Below are positions 27,401 to 39,554 of a stretch of DNA of 64,000 bases, piece after piece. A model generated the notes under the pieces. It did no database searches. It was not told where the DNA came from and was given only the letters and a program-made list of their open reading frames with translations. Every line of letters begins with the position of its first letter. The stretch's first letter is position 1. The stretch lies in contig JAJZHE010000001.1 of the NCBI GenBank assembly GCA_021804655.1, forward strand, positions 2,903-66,902, given 5' to 3'. A program made the translations under genes and the position numbers. This DNA is from Acidobacteriota bacterium. Its GTDB lineage: Bacteria; Acidobacteriota; Terriglobia; Terriglobales; Acidobacteriaceae.

Positions 27401-27987
27401 TGCCACCAGGGCAGCGCAGCGGCTACTCGATCTGCCTCCTGCTTTTCGAGGAGAGCATTATCCATTCCGCGGAAAAACGCTGGACGCAGCAACCATTGCT
27501 GACTTTGTGTCGGAGCGCCGCCTGCTGTGTTCAAGCCGAGAGGCGCACCAGCGCTCGTCGATTGTGCGCTCAGCACCATCTGGCCAGACTGGTTGGTCAG
27601 TGTCAGATATCCGTTCGTGGCAGCGGTCACTGTCCATTGTTGTGTTGCCTGCGACAGGGAGCAGGTGTTCTGGACCACGCTGGATCCGCTGGCAGAGAGA
27701 CAAAGCCCGTTTCCCGCGTTGCTGATGGCCCACAGCCCGCTGGGCAGTCGCGTCAGCGCCCATCGTTGCGTCAAGCTGCTGAAGTTGCGCGTCTCCACGG
27801 TTGCAGCCGTTCCGTTCTGCGCTGTGATGGAGCCGCCGTCAGCCTGCAAGCCTGACAACTGATTGACCAGTGTGTAGCTTTGCCCGTCGATCGGAGCAGG
27901 ATTCACAGGTTCCTGTGGCTGCTGCGCAAGGGCTGAGAATGCCACTGCCAGAGATGAAATCCCTAGGATCAAACTCTTCCACTGCAT
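24499..27987 (-). CDS. Multidomain GH53 endo-beta-1,4-galactanase (ricin-B lectin - GH53 - ricin-B - Ig/MBG/Big domains - C-terminal membrane cassette)
   Basis: GVNTVRIR, SIGNEVD, QSYYPFFHG, VMETG, YWDPEG; QxW repeats; Thr-rich Ig repeats. Confidence 0.85.
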   Translation of the reverse strand: MQWKSLILGISSLAVAFSALAQQPQEPVNPAPIDGQSYTLVNQLSGLQADGGSITAQNGTAATVETRNFSSLTQRWALTRLPSGLWAISNAGNGLCLSASGSSVVQNTCSLSQATQQWTVTAATNGYLTLTNQSGQMVLSAQSTSAGAPLGLNTAGGAPTQSQQWLLRPAFFRGMDNALLEKQEADRVAAALPWWQDASQTADVLQMMKNHGVNTVRIRPTSVPPYQTLTLSGTSALPASCTGNGCYAETDDADINLAKRAKQLGMAVVLTLFFDGGSSQSIPGAWAAESLTQLESSVYSYVKSEVEAYRAAGAMPDMVSIGNEVDTGLFGTLASPGTSFSSFAAVQQQGMQAVLDAASDTSLGAAIPPPIRCIHITPAWNLTSFFSEAKQNSIPFDAICQSYYPFFHGPLTNAQATQSNPGNKPVEETVLSDAATSIGVPIFVMETGEHYESGFESNDPWYPATVAGQRQFLIDLTGVMKNLPNHLSLGVDYWDPEGVNTIGSGGATTNGDGQPDATFVWNGLTLFDNADTSGATNTSAANYSAVLSGVDALGGRLDPTLSYKLVNVATGKVLGTAGIPGSNGIPLGLSASDGGTFTDQQWTIASDGHGHLILTDAGAAAAGTTYALDAGNAPASGTTVMLKPASSGATSQQWNLVTAGGGQYTVEQTGSTLVLASNTASGSPELEAPASIHTDWITPIGTNQLWQVLPARITEQPTPTQLAIASGVPTTAIYGSALGTVTINLLDATGSPVTSSTAPVTLTITGPQSFSESMTTNAIGGVATFSLNGNSLGGVGTYTLTATSTGISNASATVQVTAAVLTVAAEDATRIFGDANPPLLDTITGFVHGDSAAVVSGAPVLTTSAVAASAPGDYPITIAAGTLLAANYTITLVPGTLTVTTAPTTTTLSASTGQIDPGQSVTLTATVTSPSSIAPSGSVQFMDGGTTLGSAPLTASGTATLTTTLQPGANALSAAFVANADDAASTSSTITVAEADYSLVAGQTNLTLTAGGSQAVSLTVTPTGGFQGNVTMSCNSKLASLSCSFVPASFTFSGATTAQTGNVTIASAATSAAASRTIAGLRWLGMIFTLPLFILARRKIVNINGRWIAVLIVAFIAFSAMLGCGGSSSSTTPPQSTGTVTITASSPTGSITQSTQVTVTVQ

Positions 27988-28100
27988 TTTGCTCGGTGGC
28001 TCCTGATGGTGTGCGGTCCAAGATTGGTTGCCGTTTCAGCGCTTGGAACGGGCATGTGAGACATGCGAAGGTGAGCCTATCTGGATCAAATGCGTCCTCC

Positions 28101-28118
28101 ATCCGACGAAAGGAGGAT
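28101..28118 (-). promoter_or_regulatory. Operator copy 1 (ATCCTCC-TTTC-GTCGGAT on minus strand) upstream of GH53
   Basis: Matches copies at 28378 and 39501; TAGGCT -10 lies 21 nt downstream. Confidence 0.7.
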
Positions 28119-28377
28119 TGTGAAGATTTCCTTTTTTCACAGGAGCGTTCGATAATCGTGAAGCTGCATCCTCTCAATCACACGGGGAAGCGTTCGGCGT
28201 TGCGCAACGAACGAACGGCATGTATGTTCGCGCATTCTGTAATCTATTTGACATCAACTGTATCGTTTCCCGTCAGCGATATGCGCGGCGTATCTCAATG
28301 TAAATAAGACTCATATCCTGATATTGTCGATCAAAGAAAAAAGATGCCGAGCTTTCTTGGTATGAAATCGCGAATCA

Positions 28378-28395
28378 ATCCGACTTTGGTCGGAT
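28378..28395 (+). promoter_or_regulatory. Operator copy 2 (ATCCGAC-TTTG-GTCGGAT) upstream of TBDR
   Basis: Perfect 7-4-7 palindrome; TAGCCT 22 nt downstream. Confidence 0.75.
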
Positions 28396-28462
28396 GCAAG
28401 TGGAATCTCTGGCAAGATAGCCTTCTCGCCGTGTTCAGGTTCACTTTTTGGAGGCAACATAC

Positions 28463-31400
28463 ATGAAAACGAATACATTCCGCAGGCTTGCATTTGTGTT
28501 TGCATTGCTTGCCGCTGCTGCGGGATCGGTAAGGGCGCAGAACGCAAATTCGGGTGAAATCAAGGGCCAGGTGACAGACACGACTGGAGCCGCCATCACT
28601 GGGGCCGATGTCGTTTTGCTCAATACCGATACGGGCATTCAGTCCACCACTCAGACAAATCATGCCGGCATTTATGATGTTCCGTCACTGCCCACCGGTC
28701 ACTACAAAATCACTTATAGCAAGCCGGGATTCCGCGATGCAGTTCGCCAGGGGATTACGCTTTCCGTGGCCACGATTGGAGTCAACGCTACGCTGGAGGT
28801 TGGGCAGGCTACGCAAGAGGTAGTCGTGACTGCCGAGGCCCCTCTGCTGCAAACGGAGGATTCAGCACAGCATCTTGATCTCGACGCAAAAGCGGTGCAG
28901 AATGCGCCGATTGTCGGTGGCATCTGGTACAACGAGCTGACGAACCTGTTGCCAGGAGTCAACGGCGGCGGCAGCCAAAGCGCATCGGGGCAGGGAATCG
29001 GCGTCAACGGAACGGAAGGCTACTCTGGAACGTTTCTCATTGAAGGATCGATTGCGCAGGAGCCGCGCGATGCCAACGCGAGCGACAACTATCCGCCCCC
29101 CGATGCGATCGGCGAGGTGAACGTACAGACGAGCAACTTTGGCGCGCAATACGGCGATGGTGTTGCCGACTTCAACGTGATGTTGAAGAGCGGAACCAAT
29201 CAGTTTCACGGCTCGCTCTTCGAGTTCAATCAGAACAACGACTACAACGCGCGCAGTTACTTCGATCGCGCTCCACTTGTGGTTGCGCCGCTGCACTGGA
29301 ATGAGTTTGGCGGCAGCATCGGCGGACCGATCCTTCATAATAAGCTGTTTTTCTTTTTCACCTTCCAGGACAATCCAAACACTTCGTCGAGCGTTTACAC
29401 GACCACCGTGCCGACGCAGGGACAGAACGGGACAGTCAACATGGAGGCCGGATGTTTCCCGGTGCCGGTCAAGAATCCCAGCACTGGGCAGAACTATCCC
29501 AACAACTGCATTACCTCTGGCATGGACCCGGTTGCGCAGAATATCCAGAAGTATTTTCCCGCGCCAAACTTTCTGCAATCCGGAAGCAATCCTTATCTGA
29601 ATAACTACACCGTTGTCGCCGGCAGCACCACCAGCTCCAAGTGGTATGTGGGCAAGGTCGATTACACTCCAAGCCAGAAAAATCGTATCTCCGCTTCATA
29701 CATGATCTTTCCCATCGGACTCACGTATAACGTGGATGGATTCTGTTCGTTGGGTTTTGATTGCACACAAGGCAATAACTACAACGAAGACGGTCAGGTC
29801 ACCGATGTGTGGACAATCAACGATCGCATGGTGAACGAAGCACGCGTGGGCGGAGTGCGCGAAGTGGATAAGTACATTCCTCCGACCTATAACAAAGGTT
29901 ATCCGACTTCGCTCGGCATCGAGCCGACGTATGGCGCGGATGCGCCGGGCAATATCTTCCCGACTGTCACCATCAACAGCGGTGGATCGATCGGCGGAAT
30001 CGGCATCAATGGCGGCGTTCACGCTTTGCTGGCTGACGGCGCACTGGCCGAGTCTGACATCTTCACGCTTATCAAAGGGCGTCATACCATCAAGATGGGC
30101 GGCGAATTTGACAAGAGCTATCAAAACTACACCGGTTGGGGAGATATCTCTTCGGGTAACTTCGTCTTCAGCGGTGTTTCCACCGGCGTTCCCTATGCCG
30201 ACTTTATGCTGGGCGATGTTTATGGCTGGTATGTCTATGATGATGTCGAGACGGGCGCACGCATGTGGAATATGGGAGCCTTCCTTCAGGATGACTACCA
30301 GATCAGTCCAACTTTCACGCTCAACCTTGGCCTGCGCTATCAGTACCAGGGGGGATGGAGCGAAGTGCAGAACCGCTGGGGAACGTTTAGCCCACACGTG
30401 GTGAATACAGGGCAGTACGCACCTGCGGGAACGCTGGGAGCGATGGTTTACGGCGGTCAGGATGGTCGCAACACCATTCAGAACGGGATCAATCAGTGGG
30501 TGCCGCGCATCGGATTTTCGTGGCAGCCGTTTCCCAAATGGGTGGTGCGCGCCAGCTACGGCATCTCCGATCAGCCCTGGTCTGTTGATCCTTATACGGC
30601 AGCGCTTGGCATCGGCCTCAATCCAAACGGCAGCAAGGGATATGGCAATACAGCCGCGTTCAAGTTGAAGAATGGACCCGGACCGGGCGCAGTTTCCTAT
30701 CCTTCTCTGTCGAACCTTTCCAACTCGCAGTACAACTACCAGGATGTGACGTATTATCCGCAGCATCGTCCGAGCACCTATTACCAGGAAGTCTTGTTCT
30801 CGGTGCAGCATGAGTTGCCGTTCCGGATGCTTATCGATACCAGTTATCTCTTCACCAAGGGAACGCACCTTGGATTTACGCGAGATATCAACCAGGTTCC
30901 CGAAGCAGATTTGTCCGGCTATGGCACAAACTATTCCAGTTGCTACAACGATCCCAGCGCGTATCCACTCTTCTGCTCGATTGCGGGCGTGCTCTTCGAT
31001 GGCTACTCCAACTACAGCGCACTGCAACTTCGCGTGCAAAAAGCCACGTCTCACGGCTTGAATTTCCTGTTCAACTACTCCTGGTCAAAGACCATGGATT
31101 CAGGCACGGGTTCGGGCAACAACGCGAGCGTGGATACCTGGCAGAACGCCTTCAACATCGCTTCCAACTACGGCCTGTCCACGCTGGACATGCGCAACTC
31201 CATCAATGGTTCCGTCACCTATGAACTGCCTTTCGGAGCTGGAAAGCGATTTGCTCTGCACGGCGTCACGGATCAGGTGCTGGGCGGGTGGCGCGTCACC
31301 GGCATCTTCCAGGTGCACAGCGGCATTCCCTTTACGGCAACCACTTCCAACAACGGTACGGACGACAGCGGTTCAGAGGCCAATCAGTGCGGCTGTGGAT

Positions 31401-31753
31401 TTGGCTGGCTGCCCAATGTTGTCGGCAACACATCCGTTTCCAATCCATCCGTCAATCAGTGGTTCAACACCGCTGCATTCGCGACGCCAGCAACAGGCAG
31501 CTTCGGCAATGAACGAAGGAATTCGCTCATCGGTCCAAACTGGCGCGATCTTGACCTCAGCCTCGGGAAGACATTCCAATTTCCGCGAGGCATCAACTTT
31601 GAAGTTCGTGCGGATTCCTTTAATTCCTTTAACCACCCGAACTTCTCACAACCGGATGCTGCAACTGGAACCGGAGTCGTTGGCGGAGGCGTGATTACCA
31701 GCACAGCCGCCAGCGGCCGCGACATCCAGCTTGGGGGGCGCTTGACCTTCTGA
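28463..31753 (+). CDS. TonB-dependent receptor (Oar-like)
   Basis: GGAGG SD; GEIKGQVTDTTGA, KSGTNQFHG, QDDYQ, PRIGFSW, C-terminal LTF. Confidence 0.92.
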   Translation: MKTNTFRRLAFVFALLAAAAGSVRAQNANSGEIKGQVTDTTGAAITGADVVLLNTDTGIQSTTQTNHAGIYDVPSLPTGHYKITYSKPGFRDAVRQGITLSVATIGVNATLEVGQATQEVVVTAEAPLLQTEDSAQHLDLDAKAVQNAPIVGGIWYNELTNLLPGVNGGGSQSASGQGIGVNGTEGYSGTFLIEGSIAQEPRDANASDNYPPPDAIGEVNVQTSNFGAQYGDGVADFNVMLKSGTNQFHGSLFEFNQNNDYNARSYFDRAPLVVAPLHWNEFGGSIGGPILHNKLFFFFTFQDNPNTSSSVYTTTVPTQGQNGTVNMEAGCFPVPVKNPSTGQNYPNNCITSGMDPVAQNIQKYFPAPNFLQSGSNPYLNNYTVVAGSTTSSKWYVGKVDYTPSQKNRISASYMIFPIGLTYNVDGFCSLGFDCTQGNNYNEDGQVTDVWTINDRMVNEARVGGVREVDKYIPPTYNKGYPTSLGIEPTYGADAPGNIFPTVTINSGGSIGGIGINGGVHALLADGALAESDIFTLIKGRHTIKMGGEFDKSYQNYTGWGDISSGNFVFSGVSTGVPYADFMLGDVYGWYVYDDVETGARMWNMGAFLQDDYQISPTFTLNLGLRYQYQGGWSEVQNRWGTFSPHVVNTGQYAPAGTLGAMVYGGQDGRNTIQNGINQWVPRIGFSWQPFPKWVVRASYGISDQPWSVDPYTAALGIGLNPNGSKGYGNTAAFKLKNGPGPGAVSYPSLSNLSNSQYNYQDVTYYPQHRPSTYYQEVLFSVQHELPFRMLIDTSYLFTKGTHLGFTRDINQVPEADLSGYGTNYSSCYNDPSAYPLFCSIAGVLFDGYSNYSALQLRVQKATSHGLNFLFNYSWSKTMDSGTGSGNNASVDTWQNAFNIASNYGLSTLDMRNSINGSVTYELPFGAGKRFALHGVTDQVLGGWRVTGIFQVHSGIPFTATTSNNGTDDSGSEANQCGCGFGWLPNVVGNTSVSNPSVNQWFNTAAFATPATGSFGNERRNSLIGPNWRDLDLSLGKTFQFPRGINFEVRADSFNSFNHPNFSQPDAATGTGVVGGGVITSTAASGRDIQLGGRLTF

Positions 31754-31777
31754 TCGCAGACCGCTGTTCACCACGTT

Positions 31778-31828
31778 CGGGGCTGGAGCGTCCTGCTGTA
31801 TTTTGCAGCGTGGCGCTTTCCAGCCCCG
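31778..31828 (+). terminator. Long stem-loop after TBDR (terminator or stabiliser)
   Basis: cggggctgga...tccagccccg inverted repeat, no strong T-run. Confidence 0.5.
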
Positions 31829-31878
31829 GATACGATTCAAATGCGCAATGGAACACCCCTCTGGCTTACAATCGCCCC

Positions 31879-33150
31879 ATGAATTTGCTCTTGAGTGCGC
31901 CGCATTCTGACGCCGCCACCGCAGTTTTCCATCGAGGTCGTACTTGCAGGCGAGATGTGCGCCTGCTGTGTTTTGCTGTTTTTCTTGCGGCTGTTTCAAT
32001 TTCGTCGCATCAAGAGACGCTTCAGGCGCAGGTGGCCCAACCTTCACAGCAGGACGCAGCTTTGCAACAGGCCGACGCGGCTCTTCGCGCAGGCAACATT
32101 GCGCTCGCCGAGCAGCGCTATCAGGAAGTTCTGCGGCTTGATCCACACAACGGTCCTGCGCTGGCTGAACTGGGCACCATCGCCTATTCCCGGCGAGACT
32201 GTGGTTCTGCGATCCGCGATCTTCGCGCTGCGCTTCAGGATTCGCCACAGATGACGCAGGCTCGCGCATTGCTGGGCATCTGTGAGAAGCAACAGAATGA
32301 TGCAAGCGCTTTAGCAGACCTGCAATCTGCCTTCAAGGAGCTTCCAGAAGGCAAACTCCGCATTGAGGTCGGCGTGAATCTTGCGGATATGTTTTATCAG
32401 CGCGGGGACATCGATGCGACACTTCCTGTCCTTCAAAAATTGCTCACCCTGGCGCCAGACAATACGGACATTCTCTTCTTCGCCCAGCGCATCTATTCAG
32501 AACAGGCCGACAATGCGTTGAACAAACTGCTTCTGCTCGCGCCGGACTCGGCTCGGATGCAGCAGTTAATTGCAGAAAAACTCATCAACTCCGGTGACGC
32601 GCGCGATGCCATCGATCATTACAAGAAAGCGCTGGCTCTTGACCCACACCTGCCGGGCATGCACTTTGAACTGGCTGAGGCATATATGCAGCAGGGCAGC
32701 GGGCTGGCTATTTGGCAACTGGCCCGTGAACAGCTTCAACTGGCGCGTGAAGCCGACGGCGATAATCCTCAAATTGAGTGTGCGTTGGGTAGTCTGGATC
32801 AGAAACAGGGAAATGAAGCTTCTGCGCTTACACATTTCCAGCGCGCATATCGTCTTGCGCCTTCTGATCCTGAGGTCCAGCTCGATCTTGGTAAGCTGCT
32901 TGCGGATCAGAACCAACCGAATCTTGCTCTGCCTCTGTTGCGCGCGGCGGTAGCGGCAGATCCCATGAATGCCGGTGCCCACTACCGGCTGGCACGCGTC
33001 TGTCACCAGCTTCACCTCAGCAGCGAAGAATCTCTTCAGCTCAAACTCTACCGTGAAATTCGACAGGCTCAGGACAAGGTTGCAGCGATCCATCAGCAGA
33101 TGAATCGTCAGCCAGATCCGTCTGTACCTGCGAAAGATGAGCCGAAATGA
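31879..33150 (+). CDS. Tetratricopeptide repeat protein, exported
   Basis: Repeated TPR helices (ALALDP, AHYRLAR); signal-like N-terminus; TACAAT-N6-ATG. Confidence 0.85.
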   Translation: MNLLLSAPHSDAATAVFHRGRTCRRDVRLLCFAVFLAAVSISSHQETLQAQVAQPSQQDAALQQADAALRAGNIALAEQRYQEVLRLDPHNGPALAELGTIAYSRRDCGSAIRDLRAALQDSPQMTQARALLGICEKQQNDASALADLQSAFKELPEGKLRIEVGVNLADMFYQRGDIDATLPVLQKLLTLAPDNTDILFFAQRIYSEQADNALNKLLLLAPDSARMQQLIAEKLINSGDARDAIDHYKKALALDPHLPGMHFELAEAYMQQGSGLAIWQLAREQLQLAREADGDNPQIECALGSLDQKQGNEASALTHFQRAYRLAPSDPEVQLDLGKLLADQNQPNLALPLLRAAVAADPMNAGAHYRLARVCHQLHLSSEESLQLKLYREIRQAQDKVAAIHQQMNRQPDPSVPAKDEPK

Positions 33151-36100
33151 GTTTCGGAGTCTCTTTGATTTCTGCGGGGATCACTACGAGATTGCGGCGC
33201 ATGTGGCCGTGCGCTTCATGCGAATGCCTGCGCGCGAAGACAACCTCTATTCGGATGTGTTTGCTGTTTTTCTTACTTGTGGTTACTGCATCGTCAGCGT
33301 CTGGATCTGCTCCTGTCGGATATACGCGGAAAGTATGGCAGGCGCAGGATGGGTTGCCTGAGCAGACCGTGCAGGCTTTTGCGCAGACTCCAGACCACTA
33401 TTTGTGGATCGGCACAACGGGCGGATTGTTGCGATCCGACGGCTCTCATATCACCGTCTTCGACGACGAGAATACACCGCAAATCCACGAAAACAGCATC
33501 TTTTCGTTGCTGGTCACACGGGACGGTACGCTCTGGATTGGCACGGAAGGTGGTGGACTGCTGCGCTATCGCGCAGGCAGATTCCGCGCCTTCGGTGCCG
33601 CCGACGGCCTCAGCGATAACTTCATCCGCGCGCTCTTCCAGGATCGTGACGGCACACTCTGGGTGGGCACTGACAATGGACTGCTGCGCCTGGAGAGAGA
33701 TCGTTTTCTGCGCGTCGATGGTGCAAATGGAATTCCTACGCTTGCTGTTCACGCCATCACGCAGGACCAGCACGGAGCACTGTGGGCTGGCGGTTCTGAT
33801 CTGATCTCCATCGATCACGGCATCGTCCATCGCTACGCGCTGCAGGGTGGCATCAGCCAGAATCGTGTCAAATCAATTCTGGCTGCCAGAGACGGTTCCA
33901 TCTGGGTTGGCACCGTTCTCGGCTTGCATCGACTCTCTCCGGGCGCATCTTCATTCAAGCGCATTGCTGGCATTCATGCCACGGTTCGTGTCTTGCGGCA
34001 ATCCTCCGATGGCTCACTCTGGATCGGAATGATTGGCGACGGTCTTCGTCTGCTGCGGGACAACCAGTCCACGGTAATGACCGCCAGCGACACGTTGCCC
34101 AGCAACACGGTTCTGAATCTCTTTGAGGATGACGAACGAAATATCTGGATCGGCACGCAGGCTGGCATGGTGCGACTGACGCATACGCCTGTGCGCATTA
34201 TCCCGCTGCCGCAACCCGTCGATGCCGACTTCGGGACCATCTCGCCGGATACCGACGGTTCACTCTGGATCGTTTCGACGAATGTTTTTCGCATGCAGGG
34301 CGGCATTATTCGCACAGTTCACTTCCCGGGCCTTGGCCAGCTTCAGGTGCGCAACCTGTTACGCAGTCGTTCCGGTGCGCTCTGGATTGGAACAGACGGT
34401 GACGGCATCGTACGCCTCGATCATGGGAAAATCCGCTGGTACACCACGCGCAATGGTCTCGTGAACAACTTCATTCGTGCCATGCTCGAAGCGCGCGATG
34501 GAACGCTTTGGATCGGTGCGGATGAAGGGGTCAGTCACCTGACGCCGCATGGATTGATTAACTATCGCATGCGCGATGGCCTGTCCTACTTCAGCACGCG
34601 TGCTTTGCTCCAGGATCACAATGGCGACATCTGGATAGGTACGGATCGTGGTCTGAACCATATCCATCAGGGAAGGTTTGTTCATGATGCCGCAACCGTC
34701 GGCCTTAGCCAGAAGAAGGTCTGGACCATCCATGAAGATGCCGAGGGTGGTCTCTGGTTTGGCACGCGCAACGATGGTCTTTTTCGATGGAAACATGGCA
34801 TGCTCACGCATTACACCACCGATCAGGGGCTGGCAAGTAACAGCATCTATCAAATTTTGGAAGATGTGCACGGCGGCTTCTGGATCAGCGGCCCGAATGG
34901 CATCTCACTGCTCAGCCGCAAGGAACTGGACGCCGCTGCGGATTATCCGACGGCGCATCTTTCGCTGAGCTTCTATGGCATCTCCAACGATGTGGATGCA
35001 GCGCAAATTTATGGCGGTCGGCAACCCTCCGGTTGTCTCGACGCACATGGCGAAGCATGGTTTCTGACGGATCGCGGCCCGCTTCATATTCTCGCTGGTC
35101 ATGTATCTTCCGACACGCCAATTCCAATCGTGATTCATGGCGTTCAGGTCAATGGACGCACCGTCGCGAGTGACCACGGCATCACAATTCAACCCGGAAA
35201 CAGCCGACTTGAAATTGCCTGGTCGCCAATGCTGCTGCGCTCCCAGGACAGTCTTCGATTCCGTTACCAGCTCAATGGATTTGATGCACACTGGGTCGAT
35301 GCTGGAACGCGTCGCTCCGCCTCTTACACCAGTCTTCCTCCGGGAAGGTACAGCTTCCGCGTGCAGGCATTCGAGGTCAATCATCCTGAGGTTCTTTCTT
35401 CGGTTTCACTTGCCGTTGTCCAGCGCCCGCTGTTTTACCGTACGCCGTGGTTCATCGTTTCGGTTGCAATGTTGATTGTCCTGCTCATCGTGGCCATCTA
35501 CTCCTTGCGCGTCTGGCGCATTCGTATGCAGTTTGAAGCTGTTCTGGAAGAACGATCCCGCTTGGCGCGTGAGATGCACGACACCGTCATCCAGGGTTGC
35601 ACCAGCATCTCGGCGCTGATCGAAGGAATATCGAGCCTTCGTTCGCAGGATGAAGGAGCAGAACGCAGCCTCGTCGAGCACGCTCGCACGCAGATTCGCA
35701 GCACCATCAATGAAGCGCGTGAAGCTGTCTGGAATCTGCGCCGCAACCGGCCTGCGGAAAACTCGCTGGATCAGACTCTTCATCAGATGGCTGCGCACTG
35801 CGCCGATGAGTTTGGCCTGCCCGTTCAGGTTGAAGTCCGTGGAAAACCATTCGTTCTGAATCAATTTGCCACGTATGAATTGTTGATGCTGGCCCGTGAA
35901 GCTATCCACAATGCAGTTTTGCACGGCCATCCCAAAAGCATTGAGGTCGGGCTTTCGTTTGCGCGCAATCACCTGATTCTGGAGATCGCCGATAATGGTT
36001 CAGGATTCGATCCGGAACAGGTGCAGGCACAACCCGGCCATCATTACGGCCTGACCGGAATGCGAGAGCGCGTCCAATCCGTTGGAGGTCGATTCTCATT

Positions 36101-36188
36101 GACGAGCATCATCGGTCTGGGCACGCGCATCTGGATCGAGATGCCGCGTCGCGTTACTGTTCCGCGGAACGCCATGGGGAACACTTGA
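33147..36188 (+). CDS. Sensor histidine kinase with two-component-regulator propeller repeats, Y_Y_Y and HisKA_3
   Basis: Many LWIGT repeats, FRYQLNG...YTSLPPGRY, TM, ERSRLAREMHD, DNGSGF, GLTGMRER; start may be somewhat downstream. Confidence 0.92.
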   Translation: MSFGVSLISAGITTRLRRMWPCASCECLRAKTTSIRMCLLFFLLVVTASSASGSAPVGYTRKVWQAQDGLPEQTVQAFAQTPDHYLWIGTTGGLLRSDGSHITVFDDENTPQIHENSIFSLLVTRDGTLWIGTEGGGLLRYRAGRFRAFGAADGLSDNFIRALFQDRDGTLWVGTDNGLLRLERDRFLRVDGANGIPTLAVHAITQDQHGALWAGGSDLISIDHGIVHRYALQGGISQNRVKSILAARDGSIWVGTVLGLHRLSPGASSFKRIAGIHATVRVLRQSSDGSLWIGMIGDGLRLLRDNQSTVMTASDTLPSNTVLNLFEDDERNIWIGTQAGMVRLTHTPVRIIPLPQPVDADFGTISPDTDGSLWIVSTNVFRMQGGIIRTVHFPGLGQLQVRNLLRSRSGALWIGTDGDGIVRLDHGKIRWYTTRNGLVNNFIRAMLEARDGTLWIGADEGVSHLTPHGLINYRMRDGLSYFSTRALLQDHNGDIWIGTDRGLNHIHQGRFVHDAATVGLSQKKVWTIHEDAEGGLWFGTRNDGLFRWKHGMLTHYTTDQGLASNSIYQILEDVHGGFWISGPNGISLLSRKELDAAADYPTAHLSLSFYGISNDVDAAQIYGGRQPSGCLDAHGEAWFLTDRGPLHILAGHVSSDTPIPIVIHGVQVNGRTVASDHGITIQPGNSRLEIAWSPMLLRSQDSLRFRYQLNGFDAHWVDAGTRRSASYTSLPPGRYSFRVQAFEVNHPEVLSSVSLAVVQRPLFYRTPWFIVSVAMLIVLLIVAIYSLRVWRIRMQFEAVLEERSRLAREMHDTVIQGCTSISALIEGISSLRSQDEGAERSLVEHARTQIRSTINEAREAVWNLRRNRPAENSLDQTLHQMAAHCADEFGLPVQVEVRGKPFVLNQFATYELLMLAREAIHNAVLHGHPKSIEVGLSFARNHLILEIADNGSGFDPEQVQAQPGHHYGLTGMRERVQSVGGRFSLTSIIGLGTRIWIEMPRRVTVPRNAMGNT

Positions 36189-36203
36189 AAGGATTCAGCA
36201 AGC

Positions 36204-36848
36204 ATGGATAAGACCCATAAAATTCGTGTTCTCATCGTCGATGATCATCCCATTATGCGTGTTGGAATTGCTGCCATCATCAACGCTCGCCCAGACATGA
36301 TCACGGTCGCTGAAGCCAGCAGTGGAGAGGATGCCATCACGCTGTTTGCCCAGCACAGGCCAGACATTACGCTGATGGATCTTCGCTTGCCCGGCATCAA
36401 TGGAGTCGAAACCATTCGTCGCATTCGTGCCCGGCATCCAACGGCCTGTTTCGTCGTGCTCACCACATACGAGGGCGATGAAGACATCTATCAGGCGCTT
36501 GAAGCCGGTGCGCGTGCCTACATCATCAAAGGCATGCAGCACGAGGCGCTCGTTGACGCGCTGCGCCGCGTTGTTTCGGGTGGAAGGTTTCTTCCGTCCC
36601 CGATTTCCCGCGCGCTTGCCGAGCGAACTCCAGACTCCGACCTCAGCGCACGAGAGCGCGAGGTTCTGCGACTGCTTGTTCAAGGGCAAAGCAACAAAGG
36701 AATCGCCGCGACACTCGGAATCACGGAGGCCACCGTCAAGTCTCACGTCAGCGTCATCCTGCTCCGCCTCAAGGTTGAGGATCGAACGCAAGCCGTAGTA
36801 GCTGCGCTGCAGCGCGGCCTTGTGCATCTGCCGCGCGAAACGCATTGA
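36204..36848 (+). CDS. NarL/LuxR family response regulator
   Basis: VDDHP, LMDLRLPG, LSAREREVL...SNKGIA...TVKSHV. Confidence 0.95.
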   Translation: MDKTHKIRVLIVDDHPIMRVGIAAIINARPDMITVAEASSGEDAITLFAQHRPDITLMDLRLPGINGVETIRRIRARHPTACFVVLTTYEGDEDIYQALEAGARAYIIKGMQHEALVDALRRVVSGGRFLPSPISRALAERTPDSDLSAREREVLRLLVQGQSNKGIAATLGITEATVKSHVSVILLRLKVEDRTQAVVAALQRGLVHLPRETH

Positions 36849-36866
36849 GTGTTGGTCGGGAGGATA

Positions 36867-39407
36867 TTAACCCGTGCTCACTGTAATTTCCGCACTCGAC
36901 AAGCCAGATGCGCTCGCGCGGAAATGAAACTGGCCTGCTTGTTGCGTGGACTGCACAATCGCAAGACACAAACCATGAAACGCCGTCTGCACATTGCCCT
37001 GGTAGCGCTGATGGCTGAATGGATTGCCATTGTCGACGCCGATGAGTCGCCCAGCGCCTTCAACGGTAAAGCTCACCATGTCCGAAGCCGAGGGAATCTG
37101 GCGTCCGGCGTCATCCGCGATCATCACCGTGATGTGCGCAACGTCACGACCATCGGCTTGCAGATGGAGCCGATCGGCAGTCAAATGGATGCGCGCCGAC
37201 GCGCCGACGGTCATCACCTCCTGCGTAGCAACCACTCTGCCGCCGTTCATGCCAACAGCTTTGATTTCGCCTGGCTCATACGGCACGTCCCAGCTCAAAT
37301 GCAGATCGCTTGTTGTACGCAAACTCTTCGCGCGCGCAGGATAATTTCCATACACACCCTGCATGCCGATCCGCGGAAACTCATATCCCTTTACGCCCAT
37401 CGAGCGTCCGTTCAGGAAGAGCTCAACCATCTCACAATTCGTGAAGCAAGTGACCGGGATGACCGTACCCTCTTGTCCGTGCCAACTCCAATGTGGACTC
37501 AGATGAACCATCGGCGCTTCGGTCCACTGACTTTGATAAAAGTAGTACGCATCCTTCTGGAATCCGCAGGTATCAAGAGCGCCAAAGGTGCTGCCCCGCA
37601 TCGGCCACACCGCCTCGCCAAGATAGTCGATGCCAGTCCACATAAAATCACCGGCCACATAGTCATATTCGCGAACAAACTTCCACAATGACTCCGTATC
37701 CACAATCAGGTTTTGCTGTGGCAGGAAGTGCATGCCAACGGCAGGCTGCGACGGTTCCATCAGATACTGGTAGTCGCCGCGAATTCCGCCGATTCCAATG
37801 CTCTCCGTGCCCACGAATCGTCTCTTCGGATGCGCTGCTCGATCGATGCTGTAGTAGAGCTGTGCCCGCTCCCGCCAGCGATCCACATAGTTGTAACCCA
37901 CCACATCCAGCGCTTCCAGAAACTCCGGTTTCACTCGATTGGAAAGCGGTTCGGAGGCGATTCTGTCACAGGCCGCTGTCACCGGTCGCGTCGGATCTTC
38001 TTCGTGGATGATGCGCTTCAACTCGAGCAGTGTTTGCGTTCCATTCGGCGCTGCCTGGTCGCCGATCTCGTTGCCTGCGCTCCAGATCACGATGGAAGGA
38101 TGATTGCAATCCCGACGCAGAAAGTCTCTCAGGTCGCGCTCATGCCAGGCGTCAAAATAACGACTATATCCAAATTTCACCTGATCCTTGGGCACGCGCC
38201 ATTCGTCAAACGCTTCCGCCATGACCAGAAATCCCATCTGATCGCAGAGGTCCAGAAACTCCGCAGCAAACGGATTGTGGCTTGTTCGAATTGCGTTGCA
38301 ACCCATTGCCTTCAGCAGTTCAAGGCGCCGCTCCCACACACGCACCGGAACCGCAGCACCTACGCAGCCGCCCTCTGGATGAACGCATACGCCTTTCAGC
38401 TTTACGCGCTGCCCGTTCAGCAAAAAACCATGATCCGCATCGAATCGCGCTTCACGAATACCGAAACTGATCGTCGTCGCGTCAGTTGCCGTTCCTTCGT
38501 CATTAATCTCACATTGCAACCGATACAGATGCGGATCCTCCGGCGACCACAACTTTGCCCCAGCGACGACAAGGGCAAGCTCAACGGTGAGCTCACTGCC
38601 TGCGGTCACATTTACTGGAAGCTCTTTTGTGGCGATCGTCTCGCCCTCTCGATCGGTCAGCATGGCACGCACGGTACAGCCGCGACTCTTGTTGCCGGCG
38701 TTACGAACCTTCCCACGCACAAGCACAGTGGCTTCTTGTCCGCTGATGGATCGCGTCCATGCAAATATGCCCCACGGCGCAAAATGCAGATCGGCAGTTC
38801 GACACAGATGGGTATGTCGGTAGATTCCGGATCCGGAGTACCAGCGACAGTTGGGCTGCTGTGAGTTATCCACGCGAACCGCGATGACATTCTCAGCTCC
38901 GAATTTCAAATAAGGAGTCAACTCATACCAGAAGGGAACAAAGCCGTATGGACGATCCCCCAGCTTGTGTCCATTGATCCAAACGGTGCTGTTTTCGTAG
39001 ATGCCATCGAAAAAAATCGTAAGAATTCTTTCGCGATCACTCTCTGCTGCTTCAAAGTGCTTCCTGTACCACCCGATTCCGGTCGGCATATAGCCGCCCG
39101 GTCCGCTGCTTGCAGCGCGTTGGTCAATCTCGCCCTCGATACTCCAGTCATGCGGCAGGCGCACGCTGCGCCAGGCTTCATCCCGCCAGGCAATCTGTTC
39201 CGCTCCTGCGAAATCGCCGCGCGCGAAAAGCCAGTCATCATCGAAGTCCTGCATGCGGGTGCCGAAGCTTTCCACGACGGCCTGCTTTGTTTCCTCTGCA
39301 TAGAGCGAAGCGCCTTTTGCGCTCAGCAGCGCGATTCCAGCCGCCGCTGAGGCAATCCATTCGCGTCGCGTCATCTTTGCCACAGAGGTCCACCGATCCT
39401 CGGCCAT
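36867..39407 (-). CDS. Glycoside hydrolase family 2 (beta-galactosidase-like), Tat-exported
   Basis: TRREWI Tat motif; LPHDWSIE, RWYSGSGIYR, NAIRTSHNP, WSAGNE, WTGIDYLGE. Confidence 0.92.
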   Translation of the reverse strand: MAEDRWTSVAKMTRREWIASAAAGIALLSAKGASLYAEETKQAVVESFGTRMQDFDDDWLFARGDFAGAEQIAWRDEAWRSVRLPHDWSIEGEIDQRAASSGPGGYMPTGIGWYRKHFEAAESDRERILTIFFDGIYENSTVWINGHKLGDRPYGFVPFWYELTPYLKFGAENVIAVRVDNSQQPNCRWYSGSGIYRHTHLCRTADLHFAPWGIFAWTRSISGQEATVLVRGKVRNAGNKSRGCTVRAMLTDREGETIATKELPVNVTAGSELTVELALVVAGAKLWSPEDPHLYRLQCEINDEGTATDATTISFGIREARFDADHGFLLNGQRVKLKGVCVHPEGGCVGAAVPVRVWERRLELLKAMGCNAIRTSHNPFAAEFLDLCDQMGFLVMAEAFDEWRVPKDQVKFGYSRYFDAWHERDLRDFLRRDCNHPSIVIWSAGNEIGDQAAPNGTQTLLELKRIIHEEDPTRPVTAACDRIASEPLSNRVKPEFLEALDVVGYNYVDRWRERAQLYYSIDRAAHPKRRFVGTESIGIGGIRGDYQYLMEPSQPAVGMHFLPQQNLIVDTESLWKFVREYDYVAGDFMWTGIDYLGEAVWPMRGSTFGALDTCGFQKDAYYFYQSQWTEAPMVHLSPHWSWHGQEGTVIPVTCFTNCEMVELFLNGRSMGVKGYEFPRIGMQGVYGNYPARAKSLRTTSDLHLSWDVPYEPGEIKAVGMNGGRVVATQEVMTVGASARIHLTADRLHLQADGRDVAHITVMIADDAGRQIPSASDMVSFTVEGAGRLIGVDNGNPFSHQRYQGNVQTAFHGLCLAIVQSTQQAGQFHFRASASGLSSAEITVSTG

Positions 39408-39498
39408 GTTCACCGCTCCGAAACAAAAGTAAAATCGTTTTGCCTGCGTTGTCACAGCGCAAAGCATCTTTTGATTCAAGCACACCATCAATCACCCA

Positions 39499-39520
39499 GA
39501 ATCCGACTTTCGTCGGATTC
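39499..39520 (+). promoter_or_regulatory. Operator copy 3 (GAATCCGAC-TTTC-GTCGGATTC) between divergent GH2 and GH5-like genes
   Basis: Perfect 9-4-9 palindrome; TACAGT 21 nt downstream of the 18-bp core. Confidence 0.78.
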
Positions 39521-39554
39521 ACATCATCCCTCTGCGGGGTACAGTTTCTGCGAT

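What the first reader, a model, noticed from the sequence alone, without database searches (positions are those of the whole stretch)
28074..39545. Three-copy 18-bp palindrome at a fixed distance from -10 boxes defines the PUL regulon
Seen: ATCCGAC-TTTS-GTCGGAT occurs at 28378 (+, TBDR) and 39501 (+, GH5-like), and as ATCCTCC-TTTC-GTCGGAT at 28118-28101 (-, GH53). In each case, with the same spacer orientation, a TAnnnT hexamer (TAGCCT, TACAGT, TAGGCT) follows 21-22 nt later, placing the site near -42 over the -35 region. Established: this is class II activator geometry, and NarL/LuxR regulators bind short inverted repeats. Inference: it is the binding site of the response regulator at 36204-36848.
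Basis: partly seen in the sequence, partly recalled or inferred. Interest (0 to 1): 0.72.

Follow-up and report, generated by a model that had tools for sequence, protein, structure and literature searches.

The report
Operator of an acidobacterial galactan regulon
An 18-bp palindrome sits at a fixed distance upstream of three promoters in a plant-galactan digestion locus of a soil/mine-drainage acidobacterium. The same motif follows the neighbouring two-component regulator through at least 16 genera, so it is very probably that regulator's DNA-binding site; it is a solid and testable regulon, but of a known kind.

Summary
ATCCGAC-TTTS-GTCGGAT lies at 28378 and 39501, and ATCCTCC-TTTC-GTCGGAT lies at 28118-28101 on the minus strand. 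Each copy is followed 21-22 nt later by a TAnnnT hexamer. These are the only good copies in the 2.86-Mb draft genome, so the motif is not a dispersed repeat.

Orthologues of the NarL-type regulator (61-93% identity) occur in 19 genera of the family. In 28 of 30 orthologue loci, 1-4 copies of the motif lie nearby although gene order is shuffled. Of 56 sites, 53 have TAnnnT exactly 21 or 22 nt downstream, always on the strand that carries the invariant TTT spacer. The genes downstream are TonB-dependent receptors, GH53 galactanases, GH35/GH2 beta-galactosidases and an uncatalogued clan GH-A hydrolase.

Changes in the two arms are not compensatory, which argues for a protein site and not a hairpin. 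The partner kinase carries a Bacteroides-HTCS-like sugar-sensing domain.

Most likely the phosphorylated regulator binds as a dimer centred near -42.5/-43.5 and activates transcription (class II geometry). Binding, start sites and the inducer are untested.

This scan earlier noted an analogous palindrome for a paralogous pectin-locus system on other DNA (e1-1484538). Novelty: a new member of a known kind.

The parts
28378..28395 (+). Operator site A, ATCCGACTTTGGTCGGAT, upstream of the TBDR-TPR-kinase-regulator operon
   Evidence: It is invariant in three sister species (alignment A1). PWM score 34.3 bits.
28418..28423 (+). Predicted -10 hexamer TAGCCT (TAGTCT in relatives), 22 nt after site A. 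Predicted start near 28430, giving a 33-nt leader with GGAGG at 28450-28454.
   Evidence: No consensus -35 is present. The start site is inferred.
28101..28118 (-). Operator site C, ATCCTCCTTTCGTCGGAT on the minus strand, upstream of GH53. The promoter-distal arm is degenerate.
   Evidence: It is a conserved island in an otherwise diverged intergenic region. PWM score 27.5 bits.
28074..28079 (-). Predicted -10 hexamer TAGGCT (TATGCT in relatives), 21 nt after site C. Predicted start near 28067.
   Evidence: Inferred.
39501..39518 (+). Operator site B, ATCCGACTTTCGTCGGAT, upstream of the clan GH-A hydrolase gene and divergent from GH2
   Evidence: PWM score 36.5 bits.
39518..39545 (+). Promoter-like TTCACA-16 nt-TACAGT. 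The -35-like hexamer starts at the last base of site B. The -10 is at 39540-39545, and the predicted start is near 39552.
   Evidence: one consensus match against 0.1 expected; TAAAGT in relatives.
24499..27987 (-). GH53 endo-beta-1,4-galactanase with ricin-type lectin, MBG and Ig-like domains; target gene
   Evidence: Pfam Glyco_hydro_53, 1.1e-40.
28463..31753 (+). TonB-dependent-receptor-like outer-membrane protein (CarboxypepD_reg plus OMP_b-brl_4); first gene of the operon
   Evidence: Pfam 1.7e-198.
31810..33150 (+). TPR protein that follows the receptor gene in most orthologous loci
33147..36188 (+). Sensor histidine kinase: a periplasmic Reg_prop/Y_Y_Y (HTCS-like) sensor with a HisKA_3/HATPase core
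   Evidence: Pfam. PDB sequence hits to B. thetaiotaomicron HTCS sensor domains: 4a2l at 1.2e-42, also 3v9f and 3ott/3va6.
36204..36848 (+). NarL/LuxR-type response regulator, the proposed binder of the palindrome; recognition helix TEATVKSHVSVILLRL
   Evidence: Pfam Response_reg 1.5e-28 and GerE 1.5e-19. NarL 1a04 at 1.1e-39. The helix is conserved in all orthologues.
36867..39407 (-). GH2 beta-galactosidase-like gene, divergent from site B. Its control by the site is unresolved.
   Evidence: Pfam GH2 domains. Start ATG at 39407 read. GH2 orthologues lie in site-controlled operons in other genera.
39633..41741 (+). 702-aa secreted protein of an uncatalogued family with a clan GH-A barrel fold; target gene. 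The likely start is the ATG at 39633 before the signal peptide, not 39555.
   Evidence: No Pfam, NCBIfam or PDB sequence hit. AF2 pLDDT 83.9. Foldseek hits to GH42/GH35 beta-galactosidases and GH5 mannanases, E about 1e-9. Start inferred from orthologue N-termini.

Best explanation
The 18-bp element, with consensus [A/C/G]TCC[G/T]AC-TTTN-G[T/G]CGGAT, is the operator of the NarL-type response regulator encoded at 36204-36848.

The partner kinase (33147-36188) has a periplasmic propeller/Y_Y_Y domain like the sugar sensors of Bacteroides hybrid two-component systems. It probably detects beta-galactan fragments and phosphorylates the regulator. A regulator dimer then binds the two 7-bp arms. The site ends 21-22 nt upstream of the -10 hexamer, so its centre lies near -42.5/-43.5 and abuts a weak or absent -35. 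From there the dimer recruits RNA polymerase (class II-type activation).

In this genome it would switch on three transcription units: GH53 galactanase; the receptor-TPR-kinase-regulator operon, which gives positive autoregulation; and a clan GH-A hydrolase.

Shown here: the sites, their uniqueness, their conservation, their fixed geometry, their linkage to regulator orthologues and the galactan-related targets. Inferred: binding by this regulator, activation rather than repression, the start sites and the inducer.
For: Uniqueness. Only three sites occur in the genome, all in this locus.

Footprint. In three sister species the GH53-receptor intergenic region has diverged, apart from islands at the sites and the -10 hexamers.

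Linkage. Regulator orthologues were found in 29 of 401 family genomes, in 19 genera. 28 of 30 fetched orthologue loci hold sites. That is 56 sites in 586 kb, against 3 in the rest of the 2.86-Mb genome and 1 in 397 kb of paralogue loci. All ten genomes with 2 or more sites within 15 kb have the orthologue. Multi-hit genomes without it have only scattered hits.

Geometry. 53 of 56 sites have TAnnnT at +21 (20 sites) or +22 (33 sites); other offsets have 0-2. The TTT spacer always faces the promoter. An A/T-rich patch lies 8-12 nt upstream of the site. No consensus sigma-70 promoter is found in the GH53-receptor region, and only a -35-like hexamer abutting site B is found at the other.

Targets are functionally coherent: receptor 26, GH53 7, clan GH-A protein 5, GH2-like 4, and six checked ORFs of 818-932 aa downstream of sites that are all GH35.

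Regulator. It has REC and GerE domains, and NarL, VraR and LiaR are its best solved relatives. All orthologues share EATVK[S/C]HVS[V/A]IL, whereas paralogues differ.

Precedent. The LuxR lux box is a 20-bp inverted repeat centred at -42.5 (PMC3376562). The CesR/LiaR sites are inverted repeats (PMC4447274).
Against: No binding, transcript-start or expression data exist; no RNA run holding the locus was listed.

Co-occurrence is partly a consequence of the sites and the regulator belonging to one inherited locus. In one genome (G363) two sites lie 150 kb from the regulator gene.

A site that overlaps the -35 region could equally serve repression.

The conserved, promoter-oriented TTT spacer and the unequal conservation of the two arms are not explained by a simple symmetric dimer.

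One orthologous site (L048 13746) has the spacer in the opposite orientation to its likely target.

GH2 in this window has no site in class II position.

Orthologue detection scored only 7 candidates per genome, so genome-level counts are lower bounds.
Confidence: 0.72

Rival explanations
1. The regulator binds the palindrome but represses. By occupying the -35 region it blocks RNA polymerase until the signal releases it.
For: The site abuts or overlaps the -35 position. At site B a fair -35-like TTCACA and a -10 exist that might work unaided.
Against: The spacing to the -10 is fixed to within 1 nt at 53 of 56 sites, and the orientation is fixed. This is what a protein-polymerase contact requires and what steric blocking does not. 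The GH53 and receptor promoters have no recognisable -35. Sugar-sensing two-component systems of this sensor type are activators in Bacteroides (own knowledge).
Confidence: 0.13
2. The palindrome is the site of another transcription factor encoded elsewhere, and the neighbouring regulator acts on other DNA.
For: Nobody has shown binding. In G363 two sites lie far from the regulator gene.
Against: Across 16 genera the two-component pair is the only regulatory gene recognised next to the sites with the window's proteins as queries, and gene order varies. Motif clusters were not seen in genomes without the orthologue. The 7-4-7 inverted repeat fits a GerE-type dimer.
Confidence: 0.1
3. The element is a structural nucleic-acid feature: a REP-like dispersed repeat, an RNA hairpin or a terminator.
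For: It can form a 7-bp stem with a 4-nt loop. A similar hairpin, ACCCGACTTTAGTCGGGT, is a dispersed repeat in another genus (G072). In several genera a site lies just after the regulator's stop codon.
Against: There are only three copies in this genome, all at promoters. Arm changes are not compensatory: pairing is kept in only 24 of 44 unique sites at pair 4/13 and 27 of 44 at pair 5/12. No T-run follows the element and no terminator is called. The sites lie upstream of the predicted start sites.
Confidence: 0.03
4. The three copies are a chance recurrence.
For: At up to 3 mismatches the window holds 6 matches against 3 expected.
Against: Two perfect copies of 14 specified bases are expected about 0.01 times in 2.86 Mb. 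The layout is conserved in 3 sister species and 15 further genera.
Confidence: 0.01

Closest known systems
NarL of E. coli and its heptamer sites (7-2-7 inverted repeats of TACYYMT); own knowledge for the sites, for the protein match
   Same: Same protein family: REC plus GerE HTH, a HisKA_3 partner kinase, and 1a04 as the best solved relative at 1.1e-39. In both, a dimer reads two 7-bp arms in inverted orientation.
   Different: The arms are ATCCGAC, not TACYYMT. The spacer is 4 bp, not 2, and is itself conserved (TTT). The signal is probably a glycan, not nitrate. The NCBIfam NarL score of 168 bits is far below the 250-bit equivalog cut-off, so it is not NarL itself.
LuxR of Vibrio fischeri and the lux box (20-bp inverted repeat centred at -42.5; PMC3376562)
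   Same: Both have a LuxR-type HTH, a palindrome of about 18-20 bp centred near -42.5 and overlapping the -35 region, and both arms present.
   Different: LuxR is controlled by an acyl-homoserine-lactone-binding domain, not by phosphorylation of a receiver domain. The motif sequences are unrelated.
LiaR/VraR/CesR cell-envelope stress regulators (PMC4447274; PDB 5hev, 4wuh family)
   Same: They are close solved relatives (VraR 1.8e-38). They bind inverted repeats that need flanking A/T-rich sequence, and they are autoregulated.
   Different: Firmicute envelope-stress systems have small intramembrane sensors, different half-sites (for example TCAGHCT-nn-AGDCTGA) and different targets.
Bacteroides thetaiotaomicron hybrid two-component systems (HTCS) controlling polysaccharide utilisation loci (4a2l/4a2m, 3v9f, 3ott/3va6)
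   Same: The periplasmic propeller/Y_Y_Y sensor domain is homologous (1.2e-42). The logic is the same: a glycan-fragment sensor switches on a receptor plus glycoside hydrolases. B. thetaiotaomicron has an HTCS-controlled galactan locus with GH53 and GH2 (own knowledge).
   Different: An HTCS fuses kinase, receiver and an AraC-type DNA-binding domain in one protein. Here the system is split into a HisKA_3 kinase and a separate NarL-type regulator, and the receptor is not a SusC/SusD pair.
Earlier scan finding e1-1484538: a split propeller/Y_Y_Y kinase plus LuxR-type regulator with a 16-bp palindrome at a pectin locus of another Acidobacteriota genome
   Same: Same protein architecture and the same idea of a private palindromic operator.
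   Different: Different paralogue, different palindrome and different substrate locus. That finding is an unverified AI note.

Membership tests
NarL/FixJ (LuxR-type HTH) response regulators | N-terminal receiver domain with the phospho-acceptor aspartate | tested here: met
   Pfam Response_reg 1.5e-28. In the alignment to NarL, the Asp of query ...ditLMDLrlPG... lines up with NarL ...LLDLnMPG....
NarL/FixJ (LuxR-type HTH) response regulators | C-terminal GerE/LuxR four-helix HTH domain | tested here: met
   Pfam GerE 1.5e-19, residues 146-201.
NarL/FixJ (LuxR-type HTH) response regulators | Adjacent HisKA_3-type partner kinase | tested here: met
   HisKA_3 6.7e-12 and HATPase_c 4.7e-14 in the gene that ends 15 nt upstream.
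NarL/FixJ (LuxR-type HTH) response regulators | Phosphorylation-dependent dimer binding to an inverted repeat | not testable with these tools
   Needs EMSA, footprinting or DAP-seq.
NarL proper (equivalog) | Score above the NCBIfam NF007935 cut-off | tested here: not met
   168.3 bits against a cut-off of 250. It is a family member, not NarL.
Class II activator-dependent promoter | Activator site centred about -41.5 to -43.5, abutting or overlapping the -35 | tested here: inconclusive
   The site ends 21-22 nt before TAnnnT at 53 of 56 sites, which gives -42.5/-43.5 if the hexamer is the -10. Start sites are not mapped.
Class II activator-dependent promoter | Weak or absent -35 hexamer | tested here: met
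   No consensus promoter in 27950-28480. At site B only TTCACA, which overlaps the last base of the site. Orthologous sites are followed by TTCGCn.
Class II activator-dependent promoter | Activation through contact with RNA polymerase | not testable with these tools
   Needs in vitro transcription or genetics.
Bacteroides-type hybrid two-component system (HTCS) | Periplasmic Reg_prop propellers plus Y_Y_Y sensor | tested here: met
   Reg_prop 2e-58 and Y_Y_Y 1.4e-11; 4a2l 1.2e-42.
Bacteroides-type hybrid two-component system (HTCS) | Kinase, receiver and AraC-type HTH fused in one polypeptide | tested here: not met
   The kinase has no receiver or HTH domain, and the regulator is a separate GerE-type protein. 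It works like an HTCS but is not one.
REP-like dispersed repeat | Many copies scattered through the genome | tested here: not met
   Three copies, all in one locus.
REP-like dispersed repeat / RNA hairpin | Stem maintained by compensatory changes | tested here: not met
   Non-compensatory variation at pairs 0/17, 4/13 and 5/12.
Intrinsic terminator | G+C-rich stem followed by a T-run | tested here: not met
   No terminator-like site in either intergenic region.

The most novel reading that the evidence does not exclude
The operator is not a plain symmetric dimer site. It may be a polar, composite promoter module: an invariant TTT spacer that always faces the promoter, a better conserved promoter-proximal arm followed by TTCG, an A/T patch 8-12 nt upstream, and a 21/22-nt ruler to the -10. 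This module has been kept over at least 16 genera. It may be one instance of a family-wide code in which each of the many split HTCS-like sensor/NarL-type pairs of Acidobacteriaceae has its own private 16-18 bp palindrome at about -42. Such a code would let glycan regulons of this poorly studied phylum be read from sequence alone. Leads: CTCCACC-N4-GGTGGAG, TACCCCT-ATTC-AGGGGTA and ACCGTAC-TTTC-GTCCGGT next to paralogues, and earlier finding e1-1484538.
Probability: 0.35. Interest if true: 0.6.

Novelty: new member of a known kind. Interest (0 to 1): 0.5.

Why it matters
Acidobacteriaceae are abundant degraders of plant polymers in soils, peat and mine drainage, yet almost nothing is known about how they regulate glycan use. 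No paper describing an operator for any of their glycan-sensing two-component systems turned up in the library searches.

This finding gives a concrete, conserved regulator-operator-promoter set. It predicts a small regulon: receptor, GH53, GH35/GH2 and an uncatalogued clan GH-A hydrolase. It also predicts the start sites and a probable inducer class.

All of this can be tested with one purified protein and a few reporter constructs. The operator can also serve as a sequence tag to find galactan regulon members, including the unnamed hydrolase family, in hundreds of genomes and metagenomes.

Tried and rejected

De novo search for 7-4-7 palindromes followed by TAnnnT across 20 paralogue loci was noisy. 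It gave 28 hits at 21/22 nt against 17-24 at control offsets, and most of the excess came from the orthologous sites. It yields leads only, not proof of a general rule.

The paralogue motif CTCCACC-N4-GGTGGAG recurs upstream of the kinase gene in five same-genus genomes but without a TAnnnT at 21-22 nt. In the window's own genome it could not be tied to the paralogous regulator on contig C216.

My recollection that B. subtilis LiaR uses a '7-4-7' repeat could not be verified; '7-4-7' had no occurrences in the library. It is not used.

The nearest non-orthologous regulator (G013, 61% identity) has no motif, so it was treated as a paralogue.

Genome-level counts at up to 2 mismatches have a high background: 165 of 401 genomes have a hit, and the reversed-pattern control also hits. 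Only clustered sites and locus-level densities were therefore used.

The first structure prediction of the unnamed hydrolase, from 6 sequences, failed with pLDDT 44. It was repeated with 64 sequences.

No correlation was seen by eye between the S/C variant in the recognition helix and motif variants.

Full report
**What is in the sequence**

- Site A: 28378-28395, ATCCGACTTTGGTCGGAT.
- Site B: 39501-39518, ATCCGACTTTCGTCGGAT.
- Site C: 28101-28118, which reads ATCCTCCTTTCGTCGGAT on the minus strand.

On the strand that carries TTTS, each is followed by a TAnnnT hexamer after 22, 21 and 21 nt (TAGCCT at 28418-28423, TACAGT at 39540-39545, TAGGCT at 28079-28074).

Pfam gives the gene map:
- GH53 galactanase, 24499-27987 (-).
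- TonB-dependent-receptor-like protein, 28463-31753 (+).
- TPR protein, 31810-33150 (+).
- Histidine kinase with Reg_prop, Y_Y_Y and HisKA_3 domains, 33147-36188 (+).
- NarL/GerE response regulator, 36204-36848 (+).
- GH2, 36867-39407 (-).
- A 700-aa protein without any family hit, which starts at 39555 or, more likely, 39633 (+).

Sites A and C lie in the divergent GH53/receptor intergenic region. Site B lies in the divergent GH2/unnamed-gene region. The receptor, TPR, kinase and regulator genes are separated by 56, -4 and 15 nt, so site A probably drives all four. That would make the system autoregulated.

**Is it more than chance, and is it a dispersed repeat?**

Within the window, a 3-mismatch search is unremarkable: 6 hits against 3.0 expected. 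The whole draft genome is more telling. It has 2.86 Mb in 245 contigs, is 87% complete and has 60% G+C. It holds the two perfect copies and the third TTTC-spaced copy, and nothing else like them. At up to 3 mismatches with the oriented TTT there are three other hits, none with the -10 geometry. A weight matrix made from orthologous sites scores the three at 36.5, 34.3 and 27.5 bits, and the next best position scores 18.3 bits.

**Conservation in close relatives**

Three species of the same genus (G009, G016, G017) have the same locus with all three sites at the same places. Most of the GH53/receptor intergenic region is barely alignable. Two parts are conserved:
- An island around site C plus its hexamer, which reads TATGCT there, closer to consensus.
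- The stretch from site A through the hexamer (TAGTCT) and the leader to the start codon.

Site B and its hexamer (TAAAGT) are also kept.

**Conservation across the family, and linkage to the regulator**

A pattern scan of 401 genomes of the family found clusters of the motif in other genera. Homologues of the target proteins are named Acidobacteriaceae or Terracidiphilus by their sources. Single hits at up to 2 mismatches are common background: 165 genomes have a hit, and the reversed control also hits.

Orthologues of the regulator (E of 1e-74 or better, 61-93% identity) were found in 29 of the 401 genomes, in 19 genera. This is a lower bound, because only 7 candidates per genome were scored.

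I fetched 30 orthologue loci.
- At up to 3 mismatches they hold 56 sites in 586 kb. The rest of the window's genome holds 3, and 397 kb around paralogous regulators holds 1.
- The weight matrix adds sites in three more loci, so 28 of 30 loci in 16 genera have at least one site. The exceptions are a 6-kb contig fragment and the most distant orthologue (62% identity).
- Gene order and orientation differ widely between genera. The sites can lie before the kinase, directly after the regulator's stop codon, or between divergent genes.
- Every genome with two or more sites within 15 kb has the orthologue. Five genomes without the orthologue that had 2-3 hits have them scattered over different contigs or hundreds of kb apart.
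- All orthologues share the recognition-helix sequence EATVK[S/C]HVS[V/A]IL[M/L]RL. Paralogues differ at the positions that correspond to NarL Val189 and Lys192 (residue roles from my own knowledge of the NarL-DNA structure).

**Geometry**

I chose the orientation of each site only by the TTT spacer. With that choice, 53 of the 56 sites have TAnnnT starting exactly 21 nt (20 sites) or 22 nt (33 sites) after the site; other offsets from 14 to 29 have 0-2. Sites within one genus are not independent, but 44 of the site sequences are distinct and they come from 16 genera.

The hexamers are good -10 elements (TAGAGT, TATAGT, TAGTGT, TACAGT, TAGGAT). If the hexamer spans -12 to -7, the palindrome spans about -52/-51 to -35/-34 and is centred at -43.5 or -42.5.

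The consensus is ca[A/C/G]TCC[G/T]AC TTT N G[T/G]CGGAT TCg.
- The promoter-proximal arm is better conserved than the distal one.
- The TTT is invariant.
- The bases after the site, TTCGCn, sit where a -35 would be.
- Positions -12 to -8 before the site are 59-86% A+T in a 60% G+C genome.

A consensus scan finds no sigma-70-type promoter in the GH53/receptor region. At site B it finds only TTCACA-16-TACAGT, whose first hexamer overlaps the last base of the site. This is the architecture of an activator-dependent class II promoter. The closest precedent with the same DNA-binding fold is the lux box, a 20-bp inverted repeat centred at -42.5 (PMC3376562).

**A protein site, not a hairpin**

Changes in the arms are not compensatory. 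Among 44 distinct sites, standard pairing is kept in 30 at pair 0/17, 24 at pair 4/13 and 27 at pair 5/12, with few double changes. No T-run follows the element and no terminator is called.

A similar hairpin, ACCCGACTTTAGTCGGGT, is a dispersed repeat in one other genus (G072). It occurs about a dozen times, embedded in a longer repeated unit with a second hairpin. That is a different element, and that genome has no orthologue of the regulator at E of 1e-74 or better.

**What is regulated, and what is sensed**

The first gene downstream of a site was tallied over 60 sites:
- a TonB-dependent-receptor-like gene: 26 sites, often followed by the TPR gene
- GH53: 7
- the unnamed 700-aa protein: 5
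- a GH2-like gene: 4
- other or unassigned ORFs: 18

Six of these other ORFs (818-932 aa, in six loci) were checked, and all are GH35 beta-galactosidases. GH2 orthologues of the window's gene lie inside such operons in other genera.

The unnamed protein has more than 1900 homologues, all labelled hypothetical and without a Pfam domain. Its model has pLDDT 83.9 and pTM 0.89. The model matches GH42 and GH35 beta-galactosidases and GH5 mannanases at E of about 1e-9. The family conserves a V-E-I-N-N-E strand motif and a later S-E, as clan GH-A enzymes do.

All targets fit beta-1,4-galactan and galacto-oligosaccharide use.

The kinase's periplasmic part is homologous to the glycan-binding sensor domains of Bacteroides thetaiotaomicron hybrid two-component systems: 4a2l at 1.2e-42, also 3v9f and 3ott/3va6. 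Its cytoplasmic part is a DesK/NarX-type HisKA_3 kinase, and the DNA-binding partner is separate. The system works like an HTCS but is not a member of that family.

**Mechanism proposed**

Galactan fragments bind the periplasmic propeller domain, and the kinase phosphorylates the regulator. A regulator dimer then occupies the 7-4-7 palindrome at about -42.5/-43.5 and recruits RNA polymerase to promoters that have a good -10 but a poor -35. The output is GH53, the receptor operon with the system's own genes, and the clan GH-A hydrolase.

The strict 21/22-nt ruler and the fixed polarity argue for a protein-polymerase contact, which means activation rather than repression. I put about 0.72 on this whole reading. 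Most of the remaining weight goes to repression by the same regulator (0.13) or to binding by another factor (0.10).

**Open points**

- The conserved, oriented TTT spacer and the unequal arms are unexplained. They may reflect DNA shape or bending, or asymmetric contacts of the promoter-proximal subunit.
- The window's GH2 gene is divergent from site B. A candidate -10 (TACTTT, 39431-39426, minus strand) lies 69 nt from the site, so GH2 would see the site near -90. Whether it is controlled is open.
- A block conserved in the four species of the genus (GTAAAATCGTTTTGCC, 39429-39444) lies there.
- The ATG at 39555 is conserved within the genus, but orthologues in other genera begin at the signal peptide with leaders of about 80-90 nt. 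The likely start is therefore 39633.

**Comparison with what is known, and novelty**

NarL-family regulators that bind inverted repeats, class II geometry, autoregulated two-component systems and sensor-controlled glycan loci are all established. The following were not described in the literature I could search:
- this operator sequence;
- its assignment to a split HTCS-like system;
- the galactan regulon it defines across Acidobacteriaceae;
- the uncatalogued hydrolase family it flags.

Together with the paralogue palindromes I saw in passing, it suggests a general rule that remains to be tested.

I class the finding as a new member of a known kind, with moderate interest.

Noticed in passing
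window 39633-41741 (+): A 702-aa secreted protein belongs to a large family (more than 1900 homologues, all 'hypothetical') with no Pfam, NCBIfam or PDB sequence match. Its AF2 model (pLDDT 84) matches GH42/GH35 beta-galactosidases and GH5 mannanases. It has conserved V-E-I-N-N-E and S-E motifs and is co-regulated with GH53 and GH35. It is a candidate new clan GH-A glycoside hydrolase family acting on galactan.
   Followed up: partly
L026 7309 and 11987; L024 13878; L025 13770; L027 9377; L030 13369: A paralogous propeller-kinase/NarL-type pair (helix SEATVKTHINNLLGKL) in the same genus has its own 7-4-7 palindrome, CTCCACC-N4-GGTGGAG, upstream of the kinase gene. One copy (L026 11987) is followed after 22 nt by TATACT and 7 nt later by an ATG, which suggests a leaderless gene.
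   Followed up: partly
L035 2531; L038 9607; L032 11211: Further paralogue loci have perfect or near-perfect 7-4-7 palindromes. TACCCCT-ATTC-AGGGGTA fits the NarL heptamer TACYYMT, and its regulator has a NarL-like K-V-H-x-K helix; it is followed after 22 nt by TATTCT. ACCGTAC-TTTC-GTCCGGT is followed after 21 nt by TATATT. The third is ATTCGAC-GTTT-GTCGAAT.
   Followed up: no
L069-L074 (G072, another genus): About a dozen identical copies of caagggcACCCGACTTTAGTCGGGTgaaaa, each followed by a second hairpin GGGCTTTAGCCCTGG, are scattered over many contigs. This is a REP- or MITE-like dispersed repeat that resembles the operator only by chance.
   Followed up: partly
window 31810-33150 and orthologous loci (L041, L049-L051, L053-L055, L060): A TPR protein gene follows the receptor gene in most orthologous loci across genera. 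It may be a functional partner of the receptor, in the position that SusD has in Bacteroidetes.
   Followed up: no
window 39429-39444: The block GTAAAATCGTTTTGCC between GH2 and site B is invariant in the four species of the genus. It may be the GH2 promoter (candidate -10 TACTTT on the minus strand, GGAG 8 nt before the ATG) or another site.
   Followed up: no
12 to 8 nt upstream of each operator (for example window 28366-28370): An A/T-rich patch (59-86% A+T over 56 sites) lies where the alpha-subunit C-terminal domain binds at class II promoters.
   Followed up: no
L043 (G363:C1:439401 and 445046): Two good sites with correct -10 geometry lie 150 kb from the regulator gene. One of them precedes a two-domain glyoxalase/VOC-family gene, an unexpected regulon member.
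   Followed up: no
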